A stretch of 64,000 nt of DNA from Cyanidioschyzon merolae (lineage: Eukaryota), in NCBI GenBank assembly GCA_000091205.1, contig AP006492.2; one strand, 5' to 3'. The translations under genes and the position numbers were made by a program. The notes under the pieces were generated by a model. It saw only the letters and a program-made list of their open reading frames with translations, was not told where the DNA came from and made no database searches. Shown in pieces: positions 2,572-17,661 of the stretch (the stretch's first letter is position 1; each line of letters begins with the position of its first letter).

Positions 2572-3216
2572 TCACTGCGCGGTAACGGGCGGCGTCGGCA
2601 GCGGGCCATGCGGGCGGATCAACTTCACGTTACCGCCATCCTCAATCAGCTTTCCTTCCGCTCGTAGCTTTTCGTACTCTTCACGTGTGAAGCGCGTAAA
2701 GCCCCAGTATCGCGACACGTAAATACGCTGGCGTCCAGGGAACTTGTACTTGCTGCGTCTGAGTGCTTCCTTCGCTGCCTCTACGTGTTGCTCTTTCACG
2801 CGCACGCTCATGAGAATCTGTCCGATATCGACTCGAGCGACGGTGCCTTGAGGCTTCCCAAAAGCGCCCCGCATACCGGTTTGCAGGCGATCAGCGCCTG
2901 CACAGGACAACATTTTGTTGATGCGGATCACGTGGAACGGGTGAACACGCACCCGTAGGTGAAATCCATCTTTCCCAGCAGTCGCAGTCAAGTACTTGTT
3001 GGCAGCAACTCGGGCTGCTTCGAGTGCTTCACTTGACAGCTGCTCCCGCTCGTCGGAGACCAGGTTCACACAAAAGGGCAACTCGTCCGTAGCGGCCTTC
3101 TTTCGCCCCAAGTCGAAGATGCGGATCTTAGGGTCCGGCACACCTCGACAGTAGCGCGACTTGGGGTATGGCTTATTCTTGCAATAGCGGTAACAACGAG
3201 CAGGGCGCCGACCCAT
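2572..3216 (-). CDS. RPL10: 60S ribosomal protein L10 (uL16), 214 aa, single exon
   Basis: Translation [41 protein letters not shown]...[21 protein letters not shown] is the highly conserved eukaryotic L10/uL16 sequence. Full-length ORF. Confidence 0.93.
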
Positions 3217-3714
3217 GGTGAAGGTATGCTCCTAAGAACCCGACAATACGCTTCGCGACGCTCGAACCAGGAAAAGCGTGCGTTCGTATCGCTGGGAGTC
3301 GCCGCGGCGCATCGATTCCGTTTTGTACAGGATGTGGATCGATATGCGCGCGGCGCCACGGCGACGCGGGGTCGTCATCGTGCCGAACGTGTGCATCCTC
3401 TGAAATATGTCCGTTAAGTACAGAAAAAGACAGATCGTTGCGACGGCTGCAGAAGCACATCGCGCAGGGCGGTGCCATGTACGTAACGTCCTTTTACGGA
3501 AGATAAGTACAATATAGTACAATATGTTACAGGCCTGGCGGGATATCGACGGCGTGCACTGCGCTCGTAGCGCCGACGCTGCAACCAGCGACCCTGTTGA
3601 CGTCCCCTGTACGCACCGAAGCGCTCACGAGGTCTGTGGGGCGTTCGTGTAGGTCCTAGGGCGCCTGTGTGTGTCTCTGTGTTCTGACGTTACGTTTAGC
3701 CGCAAACAGGCACG
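3217..3714. promoter_or_regulatory. Putative bidirectional promoter region shared by the divergently transcribed RPL10 and RPL15 genes
   Basis: A 498 bp spacer lies between two head-to-head ribosomal-protein CDSs. It has a local AT-rich patch (tacagaaaaagacag..., tacaatatagtacaatatgttacag). This is inferred from arrangement only. Confidence 0.4.
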
Positions 3715-13920: not shown

Positions 13921-16116
13921 ATGTGGGCCGCATTTGTCTTTTTACCAACGTCACGCTTTCTTCAAAGGGCGTCTCCCCCGTGCCCTAGCTCGAATCTATG
14001 TGGAAGACAGCGATCTGCAGGGCGCGTGTCAGCGGGGACGGCGTCGCTGCGTGCGCAAGAGGGCACCACGAACACACCTCCGCGAAAGCTTTCACCCGTC
14101 GAAGGCATAAAAGAGCGCTCGAACCAGCTTCGCTATCCTCTCATAGACGAGCTGAGAAACGACGAGATTTTCGTCTCTGGGGACGCAGGCCAAATACTCA
14201 AGTTTCACGGCACCTATCAGCAGGACGATCGGGATCAGCGCACCAAGGGTGAACAGAAGAAATATCAGTTTATGCTTCGTTTGAAGATGCCGGCAGGCGA
14301 ACTGCCGGCGAGCTTCTATCGCGTTCTCGACGACCTGTCGGAGCAGTATGGGAACAGCACGCTGCGGGCCACAACGCGGAGCACTTTCCAGATCCACGGT
14401 GTTCTCAAGGGGAACCTCAAGCACGTCATGGCAACGATCATGAACGCCGGTGGCAGCACTGCAGGCGCTTGCGGCGACATCAACCGGAACGTTATTACCA
14501 CGCCAGCGCCGTACCAGAGTCCGCCCTACCAACACGTTCGCTTCATTGCCAAAATGCTCGCTGAGGTATTCGCGCCACAGACGGGTGCGCTCTGTGAGGC
14601 ATGGCTCGACGGCGAGAAGGCGGCTTCAATTGAATACTGGAAGAGGGACATCGATATGGATGAAGTGAAACGAATACGTGAGCACGACAATGGACGAGGA
14701 CAGGTGTTCAGCGGCAAAGAGGAGCCTATCTACGGAGAAACCTACCTGCCTCGCAAGTTTAAGATGGCCGTGACTGTTCCCGGTGATAACAGTGTCGACA
14801 TCTTCACGAACGATATCGGCATCGTCGTGCTCATGGATGATAACTATGTGTTACAGGGATACAACATTCTCGTCGGTGGCGGTATGGGACGCACCCACAA
14901 CAAGGAGGCAACCTTTCCACGCCTTGCGGATCCTCTCGGATTCGTTCCGCCTGATTCGCTTTTCGATACCATCAAGGCTATCGTCGCCGCGCAGCGCGAC
15001 CACGGTGATCGGCAGGTCCGCACAAACGCCCGAATGAAGTATCTTGTACACCGTCTGGGTATCGACGGTTTCCGTGATCTCGTTCGCTCTTACATGACCG
15101 ACAATGGTGCCGCGCTACAACCGTGGCGTCCGATCCCGGCCTGGGAGCACCGCGACTATCTCGGCTGGCACGAAGACGGTACCGGCAAGCTCTTCTACGG
15201 GCTGCTGATTGACAACGGGCGGGTGCGCGGCCCGCTGAAAAAAGCGCTTCGCCAGATCGTAGACGAAATATCGCCTGGTATGATCATGACGCCGCACCAA
15301 AACCTGCTTTTAACCAACATCATGCCAGAGCAACGGCAAGTCGTCGAGGGCATCCTGGCCCAGCACCAGGTCTACCGCGACGTGCGGCACATTGATCAAC
15401 TGGTGCGCAAGGCGATGGCATGTCCGGCGTTGCCACTCTGCCCGCTGGCGATCACAGAGGCTGAACGTGTGATGCCCCAGTACCTCGAGCGCATTCGCGA
15501 GATTCTCGGCAAGGCTGGCATAGCACCAAGCGAATCGTTCTTTACGCGCATGACCGGATGCCCGAACGGATGCAGCCGTCCCTACATGGCAGAATTGGCC
15601 CTGGTCGGCAGTGGACCCAACGAGGTATACCAGCTCTGGCTGGGTGGCTCGCCCAACCAAACCCGGCTCGCTTGGCCGTTTGCAGACCGGCTATCATTGA
15701 ACGAGCTCGATCGCGTGCTCGAAGCGCTCTTCGTTTTTTGGCGGCAAGAACGCCGACCTGCTGAGGCTTTCGGAGATTTTTGCGATCGCATCGGGAAAAA
15801 CGGACTTGAGCAATTCGTCTCCCAGTATGGCGAGGGGCATGCGAATGGCGATACCTCGAAGGCACGCGCAAGTACATCACGCCTATCCAAGAGCACCGCA
15901 AACAACGAAGAGAAAGTTCCGCTGCGACCCCGCGTCTCCCTGCGCCCAGCGGTGCATGCGCGTCTGCGAACGATGGCGGCCCGAGCTGGTGTTCCGCTCA
16001 AAGTCCTCGTGGATGAGATTCTGACCAAGTTCATCGCCTCCCCTGAATCCGAGAAGATGTTCGGGGGCCGTATCTCTTCGGCGATCAAGACAGATGGGAA
16101 TACTGCGATGGACTGA
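13921..16116 (+). CDS. SIR: Ferredoxin-dependent sulfite (or nitrite) reductase hemoprotein, plastid-type, with a transit-peptide-like N-terminus and an unusual C-terminal extension of about 90 aa; 731 aa
   Basis: MPAGELPASFYRVLDDLSEQYGNSTLRATTRSTFQIHGVLKGNLKHVMATIMNAGGSTAGACGDINRNVITTPAP and the siroheme/4Fe-4S Cys cluster motif ...TGCPNGCSRPYMAELALVGSG are the NiR/SiR hemoprotein signatures. The N-terminal 55 aa are Ser/Arg/Ala-rich (MWAAFVFLPTSRFLQRASPP...). Confidence 0.85.
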   Translation: MWAAFVFLPTSRFLQRASPPCPSSNLCGRQRSAGRVSAGTASLRAQEGTTNTPPRKLSPVEGIKERSNQLRYPLIDELRNDEIFVSGDAGQILKFHGTYQQDDRDQRTKGEQKKYQFMLRLKMPAGELPASFYRVLDDLSEQYGNSTLRATTRSTFQIHGVLKGNLKHVMATIMNAGGSTAGACGDINRNVITTPAPYQSPPYQHVRFIAKMLAEVFAPQTGALCEAWLDGEKAASIEYWKRDIDMDEVKRIREHDNGRGQVFSGKEEPIYGETYLPRKFKMAVTVPGDNSVDIFTNDIGIVVLMDDNYVLQGYNILVGGGMGRTHNKEATFPRLADPLGFVPPDSLFDTIKAIVAAQRDHGDRQVRTNARMKYLVHRLGIDGFRDLVRSYMTDNGAALQPWRPIPAWEHRDYLGWHEDGTGKLFYGLLIDNGRVRGPLKKALRQIVDEISPGMIMTPHQNLLLTNIMPEQRQVVEGILAQHQVYRDVRHIDQLVRKAMACPALPLCPLAITEAERVMPQYLERIREILGKAGIAPSESFFTRMTGCPNGCSRPYMAELALVGSGPNEVYQLWLGGSPNQTRLAWPFADRLSLNELDRVLEALFVFWRQERRPAEAFGDFCDRIGKNGLEQFVSQYGEGHANGDTSKARASTSRLSKSTANNEEKVPLRPRVSLRPAVHARLRTMAARAGVPLKVLVDEILTKFIASPESEKMFGGRISSAIKTDGNTAMD

Positions 16117-16988
16117 CATGGAGTCGCCAACAGCACCGGTGTTTCCAGAAGAACCGCATCCTGTGATACGTGAAAGCCCATGTCGAAGAACGGTCGATCA
16201 AGTGTGTGCGGTATAAAGTAAGCTCTTGTTGGCTCGCGGCAGTGACCGCAAAGGTTCCCATCTCGCACGACGCTGAACGCGGTGAGGGTATTCAGCATGC
16301 GTATGCCTCTCAGCGGGCTGCATGCTGGAATATCGTTACCGGAAGAGCCGTTCTGTTTTTTATCGTTTTCCTTGCGGGTATTCAACAAAAGCCAAGTGTC
16401 CTGTAGAATGGACTGAGCTCACGGAAAGTCTTGCTGACGTTACTGCTCGCTTGCGAAAAATGGGTTTCGTTGCGCGGGTCAGTGATTCTGCTGCGAGCAG
16501 GTGACTGCACCATGGTACGCGTCGACCGTATCCTGAACGCTGTGCGCCCAAAACACAACATGTCAAAGTGTAACCGCACGATCGTCTCCTCGTCGAAACA
16601 TTCCGCAGCGTACGTTCTCTAAGAGATACGACCGAGGAAGCAGCAGGATATGACGTTTCCGGACCGCTGATGCAAACGGCTATGAAGAGACGTGCATGGA
16701 CTCTGCAAAAAACGTGCACATGTACAAGAGACCGTCGCGCGTTGAACAAGACACGCGATCGATTTCGTACTTGGCAGCGAACGCTCATTACGGGAGGGAA
16801 GATAAGGTTGGTCGTCTCACTCAAGGAGACTTTGCTGCTGCTTCGCTGATTTTGTTTATAGGGGAGGGTCCGGAAAGACGCTCGGCAGCGTGTGGATATG
16901 CTCGCAACTGAGAAGCAGACGAGGACGTACCTGAAGAATCGCAAATGCGTTCATAGACAAGTTGAGTTTCAGTACCGCCGTCCACCCA

Positions 16989-17007: not shown

Positions 17008-17391
17008 TGCATGAGTGAATCCCCCGGAAAAACCGGCCACAGAGTATCGCGACCATACCTAGGCGCCCGCGCCGAGTCCGCAACAAGTCGATGCACGCAC
17101 TGGATACAGAGAACGAGGACGGACCGGATGCGAAACCCGTCGGAGCCGAAAACCCAGCCTGAAACCATTGTCAAGGCCTATTTTTAGATAAAAGAAGTAA
17201 GAAACAGGACGCCATACAAAACAGCATAGACGTGGCATCGAGCGCGAGCGTCGCTTCAGGTCGTCGAAGCGCATCGTGTAGTTGTCGGCCTCGGAGCGAC
17301 ACACGTCATACCCACAGCAAGTTCGGAACCTGATGTGTGCCAGCCGTCGTTATATCTTGCGCTTCCGCGTATTCGCCAGTCATGCTTGTCA

Positions 17392-17661
<270 letters not shown>

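What the first reader, a model, noticed from the sequence alone, without database searches (positions are those of the whole stretch)
15820..16116. Ferredoxin-sulfite/nitrite reductase carries a C-terminal ribbon-helix-helix-like extension
After the conserved end of the SiR/NiR hemoprotein fold (...FGDFCDRIGKNGLEQFVSQYGEG) the ORF continues for about 90 aa: ...SKARASTSRLSKSTANNEEKVPLRPRVSLRPAVHARLRTMAARAGVPLKVLVDEILTKFIASPESEKMF... The segment RVSLRP-AVHARLRTMAARAGVPLKVLVDEILTKFI has the spacing and residue pattern of an Arc/MetJ/CopG RHH motif. That is a beta-strand with alternating basic and hydrophobic residues, then helix A, then G-x-S/P, then helix B (as in RVSLRLPEELHERLRELAAREGVSLSELIREAL). 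Plant plastid SiR is a known nucleoid DNA-binding protein without such a domain. A fused RHH-like tail on a eukaryotic SiR would be novel and could suggest nucleoid or regulatory DNA binding.
Basis: partly seen in the sequence, partly recalled or inferred. Interest (0 to 1): 0.55.

Follow-up and report, generated by a model that had tools for sequence, protein, structure and literature searches.

The report
Known DNA-binding-type tail on sulfite reductase
The red alga's sulfite reductase does end in a small ribbon-helix-helix domain. The same tail was described in 2016 for plant, cyanobacterial and red-algal sulfite reductases, including this species, so the finding is correct but not new.

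Summary
ORF 13921-16116 (+) is one uninterrupted 731-aa ferredoxin-dependent sulfite reductase, identical to Cyanidioschyzon merolae 10D BAM80251.1. The catalytic core ends at aa 636. A variable linker (aa 637-668) and a conserved ~45-aa module (aa 669-712) follow.

My tests support a ribbon-helix-helix (RHH) fold:
- A profile of 24 tails finds mainly RHH proteins among solved structures.
- The AlphaFold model (pLDDT 89.9) superposes on CopG at 1.2-1.4 Å.
- pN/pS against a close relative is 0.07 in the module and about 0.65 in the flanks, so it is translated and constrained.

The novelty claim fails. Kobayashi et al. 2016 (PMC4898807) described this "C-terminally encoded peptide" as a predicted RHH. 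[quoted passage not shown] I found the tail in 80 of 80 sampled cyanobacterial SiR loci and in many red algae. It is absent from diatom SiRs and from the second C. merolae SiR.

What the tail does in C. merolae is open, because CmSiR is reported not to sit on nucleoids.

In passing: in five related red-alga-like loci the tail lies in the -1 frame behind a conserved slippery heptamer plus stem-loop. This looks like programmed frameshifting and I found no report of it.

The parts
13921..14073 (+). N-terminal presequence (aa 1-51), presumed plastid transit peptide
   Evidence: It lies upstream of the first residue matched by TIGR02042 (aa 52). It is rich in S, T, R and A. A targeting function is inferred, not tested.
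14074..15828 (+). Ferredoxin-dependent sulfite reductase catalytic core (aa 52-636)
   Evidence: TIGR02042 774 bits against a cut-off of 731.5, profile positions 5-581 of 581. Pfam NIR_SIR 4.6e-46 and NIR_SIR_ferr 8.6e-25, two stretches each.
15829..15924 (+). Variable, low-complexity linker (aa 637-668)
   Evidence: 7 of 30 residues are identical to the closest relative, pN/pS 0.63. Linker length ranges from about 10 to more than 150 aa across red algae and cyanobacteria.
15925..15945 (+). RHH beta-strand segment RPRVSLR (aa 669-675)
   Evidence: Extended in the AlphaFold model (model residues 7-13). Residues alternate basic/polar with hydrophobic. The Arg at alignment position 9 (aa 671) is at least 90% conserved across 24 tails.
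15946..15987 (+). RHH helix A PAVHARLRTMAARA (aa 676-689)
   Evidence: AlphaFold helix 14-27; the 10-residue blocks covering it average pLDDT 97-98.
15988..15996 (+). Inter-helix turn GVP (aa 690-692)
   Evidence: Model residues 28-30 are non-helical. The family consensus at this position is R-G-x-S.
15997..16038 (+). RHH helix B LKVLVDEILTKFIA (aa 693-706)
   Evidence: AlphaFold helix 31-44. Together with the strand and helix A it superposes on CopG 1ea4/1b01/2cpg at 1.2-1.4 Å over 36-39 residues.
16042..16071 (+). Short extra helix PESEKMFGGR (aa 708-717), outside the canonical RHH
   Evidence: AlphaFold helix 46-55 with lower confidence (last block pLDDT 71). The start, SPESE, is conserved in Cyanidiales relatives; the remainder diverges.
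16072..16116 (+). Unconserved C-terminal end (aa 718-731) and stop codon TGA (16114-16116)
   Evidence: For aa 713-731, 4 of 19 residues are identical to the closest relative, pN/pS 0.66. The stop is seen.

Best explanation
The gene is the nuclear, plastid-targeted ferredoxin-dependent sulfite reductase of Cyanidioschyzon merolae, the copy on the 839,707-bp chromosome. Its last ~95 residues are a flexible linker plus a ~45-residue ribbon-helix-helix domain. This is the same element Kobayashi et al. 2016 named the C-terminally encoded peptide (CEP) of SiR. It was inherited from the cyanobacterial ancestor of plastids, where the fusion is widespread. Shown here: the tail is part of the ORF, is under purifying selection as strong as the enzyme core, has RHH-type sequence and predicted fold, and is conserved across red algae and cyanobacteria. 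Inferred: as in other RHH proteins, two tails pair their N-terminal strands into an antiparallel ribbon, which would make SiR a tail-linked dimer. The ribbon, with outward-facing Arg/Ser/Arg side chains, would sit in the DNA major groove, and the N-terminus of helix B would contact the backbone. That would tether some of the enzyme to plastid DNA. In land plants this tethering is supported by the CEP-graft experiment. In C. merolae it is untested, and bulk nucleoid localisation was reported absent.
For: Identity and extent. Conservation of the tail in SiRs of Cyanidiales, Galdieria, Chondrus, Agarophyton, Porphyridium, Rhodella, Compsopogon and Madagascaria, and of cyanobacteria. All 80 best cyanobacterial SiR loci (Nostoc, Anabaena, Calothrix, Tolypothrix, Nodularia, Coleofasciculus, Gloeocapsa, Aphanothece and others) carry the tail in the SiR ORF. 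Purifying selection, pN/pS 0.074 in aa 667-712. RHH assignment: the profile of 24 tails against PDB sequences gives AvtR 1e-4, MazE7 9e-4, a CopG-family protein, ORF56, ParG, CopG, PutA RHH and omega repressor. Pfam RHH_5 matches 12 of 24 tails (best 4.6e-5) and RHH_3 reaches 8.2e-6. AlphaFold gives pLDDT 89.9 with an extended segment followed by helices 14-27 and 31-44. Foldseek finds CopG at probability 0.98-0.99 and rmsd 1.2-1.4 Å. HMMER over 1.84 billion representatives links the tail to many 45-60-aa stand-alone proteins with the same motif pattern at E 1e-9 to 1e-5. Prior description and plant experiment: PMC4898807.
Against: The window tail on its own reaches no Pfam or NCBIfam threshold. 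One scan found nothing even at E<=10; a shorter segment gave FitA-like RHH at 13.4 bits against a cut-off of 27. Foldseek E-values are only 0.2-1, as expected for so small a domain. DSSP assigns no strand in the monomer model. The dimer could not be modelled, and the natural tandem tail of Rhodella gave an inconclusive model with no ribbon (pLDDT 73.9, pTM 0.40). Kobayashi et al. cite Sato 2004 that C. merolae SiR does not localise to nucleoids, so bulk DNA tethering may not be its role in this species. I could not retrieve land-plant CEP sequences, so homology to them rests on the paper, which gives <30% identity.
Confidence: 0.8

Rival explanations
1. The RHH-fold tail is used in red algae and cyanobacteria mainly as a dimerisation or protein-protein interaction module. 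It might, for example, control oligomeric state, partner binding or turnover of SiR. DNA binding would then be a later specialisation of land-plant CEPs.
For: CmSiR and cyanobacterial SiR are reported not to be nucleoid-localised, as cited in PMC4898807. The authors propose that nucleoid affinity arose later through sequence change. Red-algal and cyanobacterial tails are <30% identical to plant CEPs according to the paper.
Against: The strand keeps basic or polar residues at the outward-facing positions. One Arg is at least 90% conserved across red algae and cyanobacteria, which is the signature of a nucleic-acid-contacting ribbon. In many tails the segment just before the strand is rich in Lys and Arg. 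The closest structural and sequence matches are DNA-binding repressors and antitoxins.
Confidence: 0.25
2. The tail makes SiR a PutA-like 'trigger enzyme': a metabolic enzyme whose RHH domain binds specific operators and couples sulfite or redox status to transcription. Targets would be sulfur-assimilation genes in cyanobacteria and perhaps plastid-encoded genes in red algae.
For: The PutA RHH domains (2gpe, 2rbf, 2ay0) are among the weak profile hits, E about 0.6-1. The fusion is retained over a very large evolutionary span under strong constraint. That fits a specific function better than generic stickiness. Lack of bulk nucleoid localisation is compatible with few specific sites.
Against: No operator, regulon or regulatory phenotype is known. 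In PutA the RHH is N-terminal, whereas here it is C-terminal behind a floppy linker. I made no test of candidate binding sites.
Confidence: 0.15
3. The extension is not part of the protein. It would be a 3' UTR read as ORF in GC-rich DNA, or a missed intron or stop at the junction.
For: None was found beyond the generic risk in a 55-58% GC genome. An antisense ORF of 268 aa (15582-16388) shows that long spurious ORFs do occur here.
Against: There are 27 synonymous against 5 non-synonymous differences in the module. The same module is conserved in dozens of species in the same position. The reference annotation has the same 731 aa.
Confidence: 0.01

Closest known systems
C-terminally encoded peptide (CEP) of plant-type sulfite reductase (Kobayashi et al. 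2016, Genome Biol Evol 8:1459, PMC4898807)
   Same: Same position directly after the SiR core, same size (~50 aa) and same predicted RHH fold, which the paper modelled on CopG 1B01. The paper explicitly lists red-algal SiRs (C. merolae) and cyanobacterial SiRs as carrying it and infers an origin in the endosymbiont.
   Different: Sequence identity to land-plant CEPs is reported as <30%. The nucleoid localisation shown for plant CEP is reported absent for CmSiR. The paper did not analyse selection, the breadth in cyanobacteria, the tail-less C. merolae paralogue or the frameshifted variants seen here.
CopG / Arc / MetJ superfamily of RHH transcriptional repressors (e.g. CopG, PDB 1b01, 1ea4, 2cpg)
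   Same: Strand, helix, turn, helix order in about 45 residues. Alternating strand residues. Model rmsd of 1.2-1.4 Å to CopG. The profile hits listed.
   Different: Those proteins are free-standing small dimeric regulators. Here the module is the C-terminal appendage of a 70-kDa redox enzyme, and it has an extra short helix. No operator is known.
PutA (proline utilisation A), an enzyme fused to an RHH DNA-binding domain
   Same: A metabolic enzyme covalently joined to an RHH domain. PutA RHH appears among the weak profile hits.
   Different: In PutA the RHH is N-terminal and autorepression of the put operon is demonstrated. For SiR no regulatory role has been shown.
Second SiR-like enzyme of C. 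merolae (BAM79554.1; NIR, CMG021C in the literature)
   Same: 61% identical catalytic core and the same domain set.
   Different: It ends about 10 residues after the core with no RHH tail. The literature treats CMG021C as the nitrite reductase of nitrate assimilation (PMC4549557). Equating BAM79554.1 with CMG021C is my inference from its 584,452-bp chromosome.

Membership tests
Ferredoxin-dependent assimilatory sulfite reductase (TIGR02042) | Full-length match above the curated equivalog cut-off | tested here: met
   774 bits against a cut-off of 731.5; protein aa 52-636 match profile positions 5-581 of 581.
Ferredoxin-dependent assimilatory sulfite reductase (TIGR02042) | Duplicated NIR_SIR_ferr plus NIR_SIR (4Fe-4S/siroheme) domain pairs, with the Cys-x5-Cys and Cys-x3-Cys cluster ligand motifs | tested here: met
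   Pfam PF01077 and PF03460 each match in two stretches. ACPALPLC and GCPNGC are visible in the translation. Assigning these as the cluster ligands is from my own knowledge.
Ribbon-helix-helix (Arc/MetJ/CopG) superfamily | About 45 residues ordered as N-terminal strand, helix A, tight turn, helix B | tested here: met
   AlphaFold model pLDDT 89.9: residues 1-13 extended, helices 14-27 and 31-44, 3-residue turn.
Ribbon-helix-helix (Arc/MetJ/CopG) superfamily | Structural superposition on solved RHH proteins | tested here: met
   Foldseek against the PDB: CopG 1ea4/1b01/2cpg at probability 0.98-0.99, TM (target) 0.72-0.78, rmsd 1.2-1.4 Å over 36-39 residues. Nearly all top 50 hits are RHH proteins. 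E-values are only 0.2-1.
Ribbon-helix-helix (Arc/MetJ/CopG) superfamily | Statistically significant sequence match to RHH family profiles | tested here: inconclusive
   The window tail alone: best hit FitA-like RHH, E 0.075, 13.4 bits against a cut-off of 27; nothing. Family level: RHH_5 matches 12 of 24 tails (best 4.6e-5) and RHH_3 reaches 8.2e-6. The profile against the PDB gives AvtR 1e-4 and MazE7 9e-4. The hits are consistent, but I did not check whether any of them reaches Pfam's curated cut-offs.
Ribbon-helix-helix (Arc/MetJ/CopG) superfamily | Obligate homodimer with a two-stranded antiparallel beta-ribbon | not testable with these tools
   No multimer prediction was available. As a proxy I modelled the natural tandem tail of Rhodella. 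It gave four helices and no ribbon (pLDDT 73.9, pTM 0.40), which is inconclusive.
Ribbon-helix-helix (Arc/MetJ/CopG) superfamily | DNA binding through the ribbon | not testable with these tools
   Support is indirect only: the strand reads R-P-R-V-S-L-R and one Arg is at least 90% conserved.
SiR C-terminally encoded peptide (CEP; Kobayashi et al. 2016) | Conserved ~50-aa peptide immediately C-terminal to the SiR catalytic domains, predicted RHH | tested here: met
   The paper itself names CmSiR as a carrier.
SiR C-terminally encoded peptide (CEP; Kobayashi et al. 2016) | Detectable homology to land-plant CEPs (pea, bean, Physcomitrella) | not tested
   No plant SiR appeared in the 120-hit lists. 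The paper's supplement is not held. The paper reports <30% identity.
SiR C-terminally encoded peptide (CEP; Kobayashi et al. 2016) | Confers localisation to plastid nucleoids | not testable with these tools
   Shown for bean CEP grafted on AtSiR. CmSiR is reported as not nucleoid-localised.

The most novel reading that the evidence does not exclude
In red algae and cyanobacteria the RHH tail may not be a bulk nucleoid anchor. It may instead be a dose-sensitive, sequence-specific module (a PutA-like trigger enzyme) linking sulfite reduction to plastid or cyanobacterial gene expression. Three observations are compatible with this. Constraint on the tail in C. merolae is strong (pN/pS 0.07) although the enzyme is reported off the nucleoid. 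The nitrite-reducing paralogue has lost the tail. In a related red-alga-like group, attachment of the tail appears to be rationed by a conserved -1 ribosomal frameshift signal, which would give mostly tail-less enzyme plus a minor tailed form.
Probability: 0.15. Interest if true: 0.65.

Novelty: already known. Interest (0 to 1): 0.15.

Why it matters
For the window itself it matters little. The tail is in the public protein record, and its RHH nature, including in C. merolae, was published in 2016.

What remains open is its function outside land plants. An enzyme-RHH fusion has been kept under strong selection from cyanobacteria to red algae, yet it is reported not to be nucleoid-bound there. 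C. merolae has gene targeting, so tail deletion and localisation experiments are feasible.

The side observation could matter more. It is a conserved slippery site plus stem-loop that puts the tail in the -1 frame in five related loci. Conserved programmed -1 frameshifting in cellular nuclear genes is rare and often disputed. A preprint abstract on frameshifting in a human gene says very few conserved nuclear examples are known and some evidence is controversial (PMC11451614, listed).

Tried and rejected
- Pfam and NCBIfam on the 98-aa tail alone found nothing even at E<=10. Only alignment-level tests gave a signal.
- The word-indexed protein search with the tail profile returned only 9 short SiR fragments. 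It did not reach plant CEPs, so I could not test plant homology myself. The paper's supplement with the alignment is not held.
I replaced it with a full-length cyanobacterial SiR query. Its best 80 loci are biased towards proteins that match the tail, so 80 of 80 is not a prevalence estimate.
- The tandem-tail model of Rhodella, used as a stand-in for a dimer, was inconclusive.
- For the split SiR/RHH loci I considered four alternatives:
  - An intron. In L002 no GT...AG pair removes the stop and restores the frame (hand check on the sequence), and the two frames overlap by only about 10-17 codons.
  - Homopolymer assembly error. This is unlikely because five different sequences share the same -1 arrangement and the same in-frame stop. 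An indel in the G7 run is still needed in L006.
  - Stop-codon readthrough. This works only in L006.
  - Separate genes. The gaps are only 2-114 nt in a eukaryotic context.
- The metagenome pattern scan for more cassettes returned 20 stretches, but only re-finds of known loci lay next to SiR.
- Rfam has no family for the cassette.
- Accession and run numbers gave no paper, so the organisms stay unidentified.
Full report
**What is in the window**

The + strand carries one uninterrupted ORF, 13921-16116, of 731 aa. NCBIfam TIGR02042 (ferredoxin-dependent sulfite reductase) matches aa 52-636 over its entire length at 774 bits, against a cut-off of 731.5. Pfam finds the duplicated NIR_SIR_ferr / NIR_SIR domains. 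Residues 637-731 therefore lie outside the canonical enzyme. The finding's coordinates (15820-16116) cover aa 634 to the stop.

An exact-sequence look-up shows the protein is BAM80251.1 / XP_005534858.1 / UniProt M1URK1. That entry is 'sulfite reductase, ferredoxin dependent' of Cyanidioschyzon merolae 10D, on an 839,707-bp chromosome. The public annotation already includes the tail.

**Is the tail real coding sequence?**

I fetched the orthologous gene of a close relative (P0002, 80% identical protein; locus L001). I then counted codon differences by region.

| Region | pN/pS | Notes |
|---|---|---|
| Catalytic core, aa 100-636 | 0.111 | |
| Linker, aa 637-666 | 0.63 | |
| RHH module, aa 667-712 | 0.074 | 27 synonymous, 5 non-synonymous, 42 of 46 residues identical |
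| Last 19 residues, aa 713-731 | 0.66 | |

The module is as constrained as the enzyme, and it is flanked by nearly neutral segments. This rules out an untranslated read-through or a missed stop or intron.

**Distribution**

Among the 120 best SiR homologues, the same C-terminal module follows the core after a linker of very variable length. The consensus is (K/R)PR(V/L)(S/T)V…(L)K…A…(R)G.S…(L)A.EI(L)..YL. It occurs in these groups:
- Cyanidiales: Cyanidiococcus and Cyanidium.
- Other red algae: Galdieria, Chondrus, Agarophyton, Porphyridium, Compsopogon and Madagascaria. Rhodella carries two tandem copies.
- Cyanobacteria: Lyngbya and Chamaesiphon.

Diatom SiRs stop 2-8 residues after the core.

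A scan of bacterial genomes with a cyanobacterial SiR found 569 relatives. All 80 of the best loci carry the module inside the SiR ORF. They include Nostoc, Anabaena, Calothrix, Tolypothrix, Nodularia, Coleofasciculus, Gloeocapsa, Aphanothece, Symploca and Microcoleus. The sample is biased towards tail-bearing genes.

The second SiR-like protein of C. merolae is BAM79554.1 (679 aa, on a 584,452-bp chromosome). It has no tail. By inference it is CMG021C, which the literature treats as the nitrite reductase of nitrate assimilation (PMC4549557).

**Is it an RHH?**

- The window tail alone reaches no curated threshold.
- A profile of 24 tails (A1) searched against all PDB sequences returns mostly RHH proteins. 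They are AvtR (1e-4), MazE7 (9e-4), a CopG-family protein, ORF56, ParG, CopG 1b01, PutA's RHH and the omega repressor. All align in the same register.
- Scanned individually, 12 of 24 tails hit Pfam RHH_5 (best 4.6e-5). Others hit RHH_3 (8.2e-6), FitA-like, HicB, RHH_4, RHH_1 and ParG.
- AlphaFold2 on aa 663-719 with this alignment gives pLDDT 89.9. The model has an extended N-terminal segment, helix 14-27, a three-residue turn, helix 31-44 and a short extra helix.
- Foldseek against the PDB puts CopG first (probability 0.98-0.99, rmsd 1.2-1.4 Å over 36-39 residues). Arc, MazE6, CopA-SO, StnY, NikA, TacA and PutA follow. E-values are 0.2-1, as is usual for a 45-residue domain.
- HMMER over 1.84 billion representatives finds 719 proteins at E<=1e-3. 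They include many stand-alone or tandem proteins of 45-60 aa that share the same motif pattern.

The fold assignment is well supported. The dimeric ribbon and DNA binding are inferred. A model of the natural tandem tail of Rhodella showed the helix pattern twice but no ribbon (pLDDT 73.9).

**Comparison with what is known**

Kobayashi et al. 2016 (Genome Biol Evol 8:1459; PMC4898807) reported a conserved ~50-aa 'C-terminally encoded peptide' (CEP) in nucleoid-type land-plant SiRs. Their main points were:
- They modelled it as an RHH on CopG 1B01.
- Maize and Arabidopsis SiRs lack it.
- Adding the bean CEP to AtSiR relocates the enzyme to nucleoids.
[quoted passage not shown] - They note that CmSiR is not nucleoid-localised, citing Sato 2004.

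The premise that plant SiR lacks such a domain, and the novelty claim, are both wrong. This is an already known feature.

My analysis adds several points:
- The selection test.
- The breadth of the fusion in cyanobacteria.
- Absence of the tail from the NIR-type paralogue.
- The variants described under 'Seen in passing'.

**Mechanism**

The most likely mechanism, at about 0.5 for the DNA step, is as follows. Two tails form a strand-swapped RHH dimer. The ribbon (R-P-R-V-S-L-R, with one Arg at least 90% conserved) contacts DNA and tethers SiR dimers to plastid DNA.

There are two rivals. One is a non-DNA dimerisation or interaction role. The other is a PutA-like, sequence-specific 'trigger enzyme' role. 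The reported absence of CmSiR from nucleoids keeps both alive.

**Seen in passing: a frameshift-like cassette in related loci, not in the window**

Five contigs from unidentified compact eukaryotic genomes carry an SiR core ORF that stops at …P-S/L-T-G/E*. The RHH tail is encoded just downstream in the -1 frame. The loci and sources are:

| Locus | Source |
|---|---|
| L002 (= L003 = L013) | GCA_029976255.1 |
| L005 | SRR25757609 |
| L006 | GCA_016292395.1 |
| L007 | SRR23274246 |
| L108 | ERR10921351 |

Their SiRs are 74% identical to those of Chondrus and Agarophyton. The frame arrangement is shown.

The junction is conserved at the nucleotide level. It has a slippery heptamer in the correct phase: A_AAA_AAA in three loci and A_AAA_AAC in two. 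A 5-6-nt spacer follows. Then comes a 9-13-bp stem-loop (CCGTCGAC…GTCGACGG) whose loop holds the 0-frame stop. Folding energies for the four loci folded (L002, L005, L006, L007) are -26 to -31 kcal/mol, with z-scores of -1.5 to -4.1.

In the four-sequence alignment (L002, L005, L006, L007), 97.5% of stem cells pair. The only variation is two wobble changes, and there are no compensatory double changes. L108, checked by eye against L002, adds two further wobble-compatible changes. The -1 frame opens only 2-8 codons before the slippery site.

L006 additionally needs an indel in a G7 run, or stop-codon readthrough, to reach the RHH.

This is the architecture of programmed -1 ribosomal frameshifting. 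It would yield mostly tail-less SiR plus a minor SiR-RHH form. Transcriptional slippage on the A-run is the main alternative.

Rfam has no matching family. I found no paper on it in the held library.

One further contig (L004) encodes what looks like a stand-alone RHH protein of the same subtype, with its own N-terminal presequence.

**Verdict**

Novelty is nil for the window's feature, so interest is low. The frameshift cassette in related loci deserves separate follow-up.

Noticed in passing
L002 4932-4987 (= L003, L013); L005 ~3294-3337; L006 ~2660-2703; L007 ~3181-3225; L108 ~3090-3145: In five related red-alga-like SiR genes the RHH tail lies in the -1 frame behind a conserved cassette. 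The cassette is an in-phase slippery heptamer (A_AAA_AAA or A_AAA_AAC), a 5-6-nt spacer, and a 9-13-bp stem-loop (CCGTCGAC…GTCGACGG) whose loop contains the 0-frame stop. This is the textbook architecture of programmed -1 ribosomal frameshifting, and would give tail-less SiR plus a minor SiR-RHH form. There is no Rfam family and I found no paper. The organisms are unidentified. L006 needs an extra indel in a G7 run, or stop-codon readthrough, to reach the RHH.
   Followed up: partly
L004 375-932 (Logan ERR4592243); also proteins P0183/P0304: An apparently stand-alone gene encodes an N-terminal presequence, a low-complexity region and an RHH of the same subtype as the frameshifted SiR tails (KARPRLTVQADVMARLRKVAVEREMTASELAEELL). 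The upstream DNA is AT-rich and there is no SiR core upstream. This may be a domain fission of the SiR tail.
   Followed up: partly
Protein BAM79554.1 (P0148; cluster of P0005), C. merolae chromosome of 584,452 bp; not in this window: The second SiR-like enzyme of C. merolae ends about 10 residues after the catalytic core and has no RHH tail. By inference it is CMG021C, the nitrite reductase of nitrate assimilation. Its orthologue in Cyanidiococcus (P0155) also lacks the tail.
   Followed up: partly
Protein P0029 (Rhodella, MMETSP0314) aa ~679-749: This SiR carries two tandem copies of the RHH module with almost no spacer, a possible single-chain pseudo-dimer. The AlphaFold model showed four helices but no ribbon (pLDDT 73.9).
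   Followed up: partly
Proteins P0007, P0017, P0022, P0024, P0036, P0046, P0050, P0060 and others (florideophyte-like SiRs), linker between core and RHH: These linkers are 100-180 aa long. They contain a recurring motif, (K)RVTVARGxxK(I/V)TV(L/V), well upstream of the RHH. It looks like a further conserved strand-like element of unknown role.
   Followed up: no
Proteins P0200 (299 aa) and P0213/P0305 (358-364 aa): Eukaryote-looking proteins with a match to the SiR-tail profile near the N-terminus (aa 75-133). A HAD-superfamily phosphatase-like region follows; one source names it beta-phosphoglucomutase-like. This may be another enzyme-RHH combination.
   Followed up: no
window 17390-17543: A pentanucleotide microsatellite, (CAGAG) x ~31 copies with 85% matches, lies about 1.3 kb downstream of the SiR stop. 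It creates long artefactual ORFs in several frames on both strands.
   Followed up: no
window 15582-16388 (-): A 268-aa antisense ORF overlaps the whole tail region. The + strand codon-substitution pattern argues that it is a spurious ORF of GC-rich DNA.
   Followed up: no
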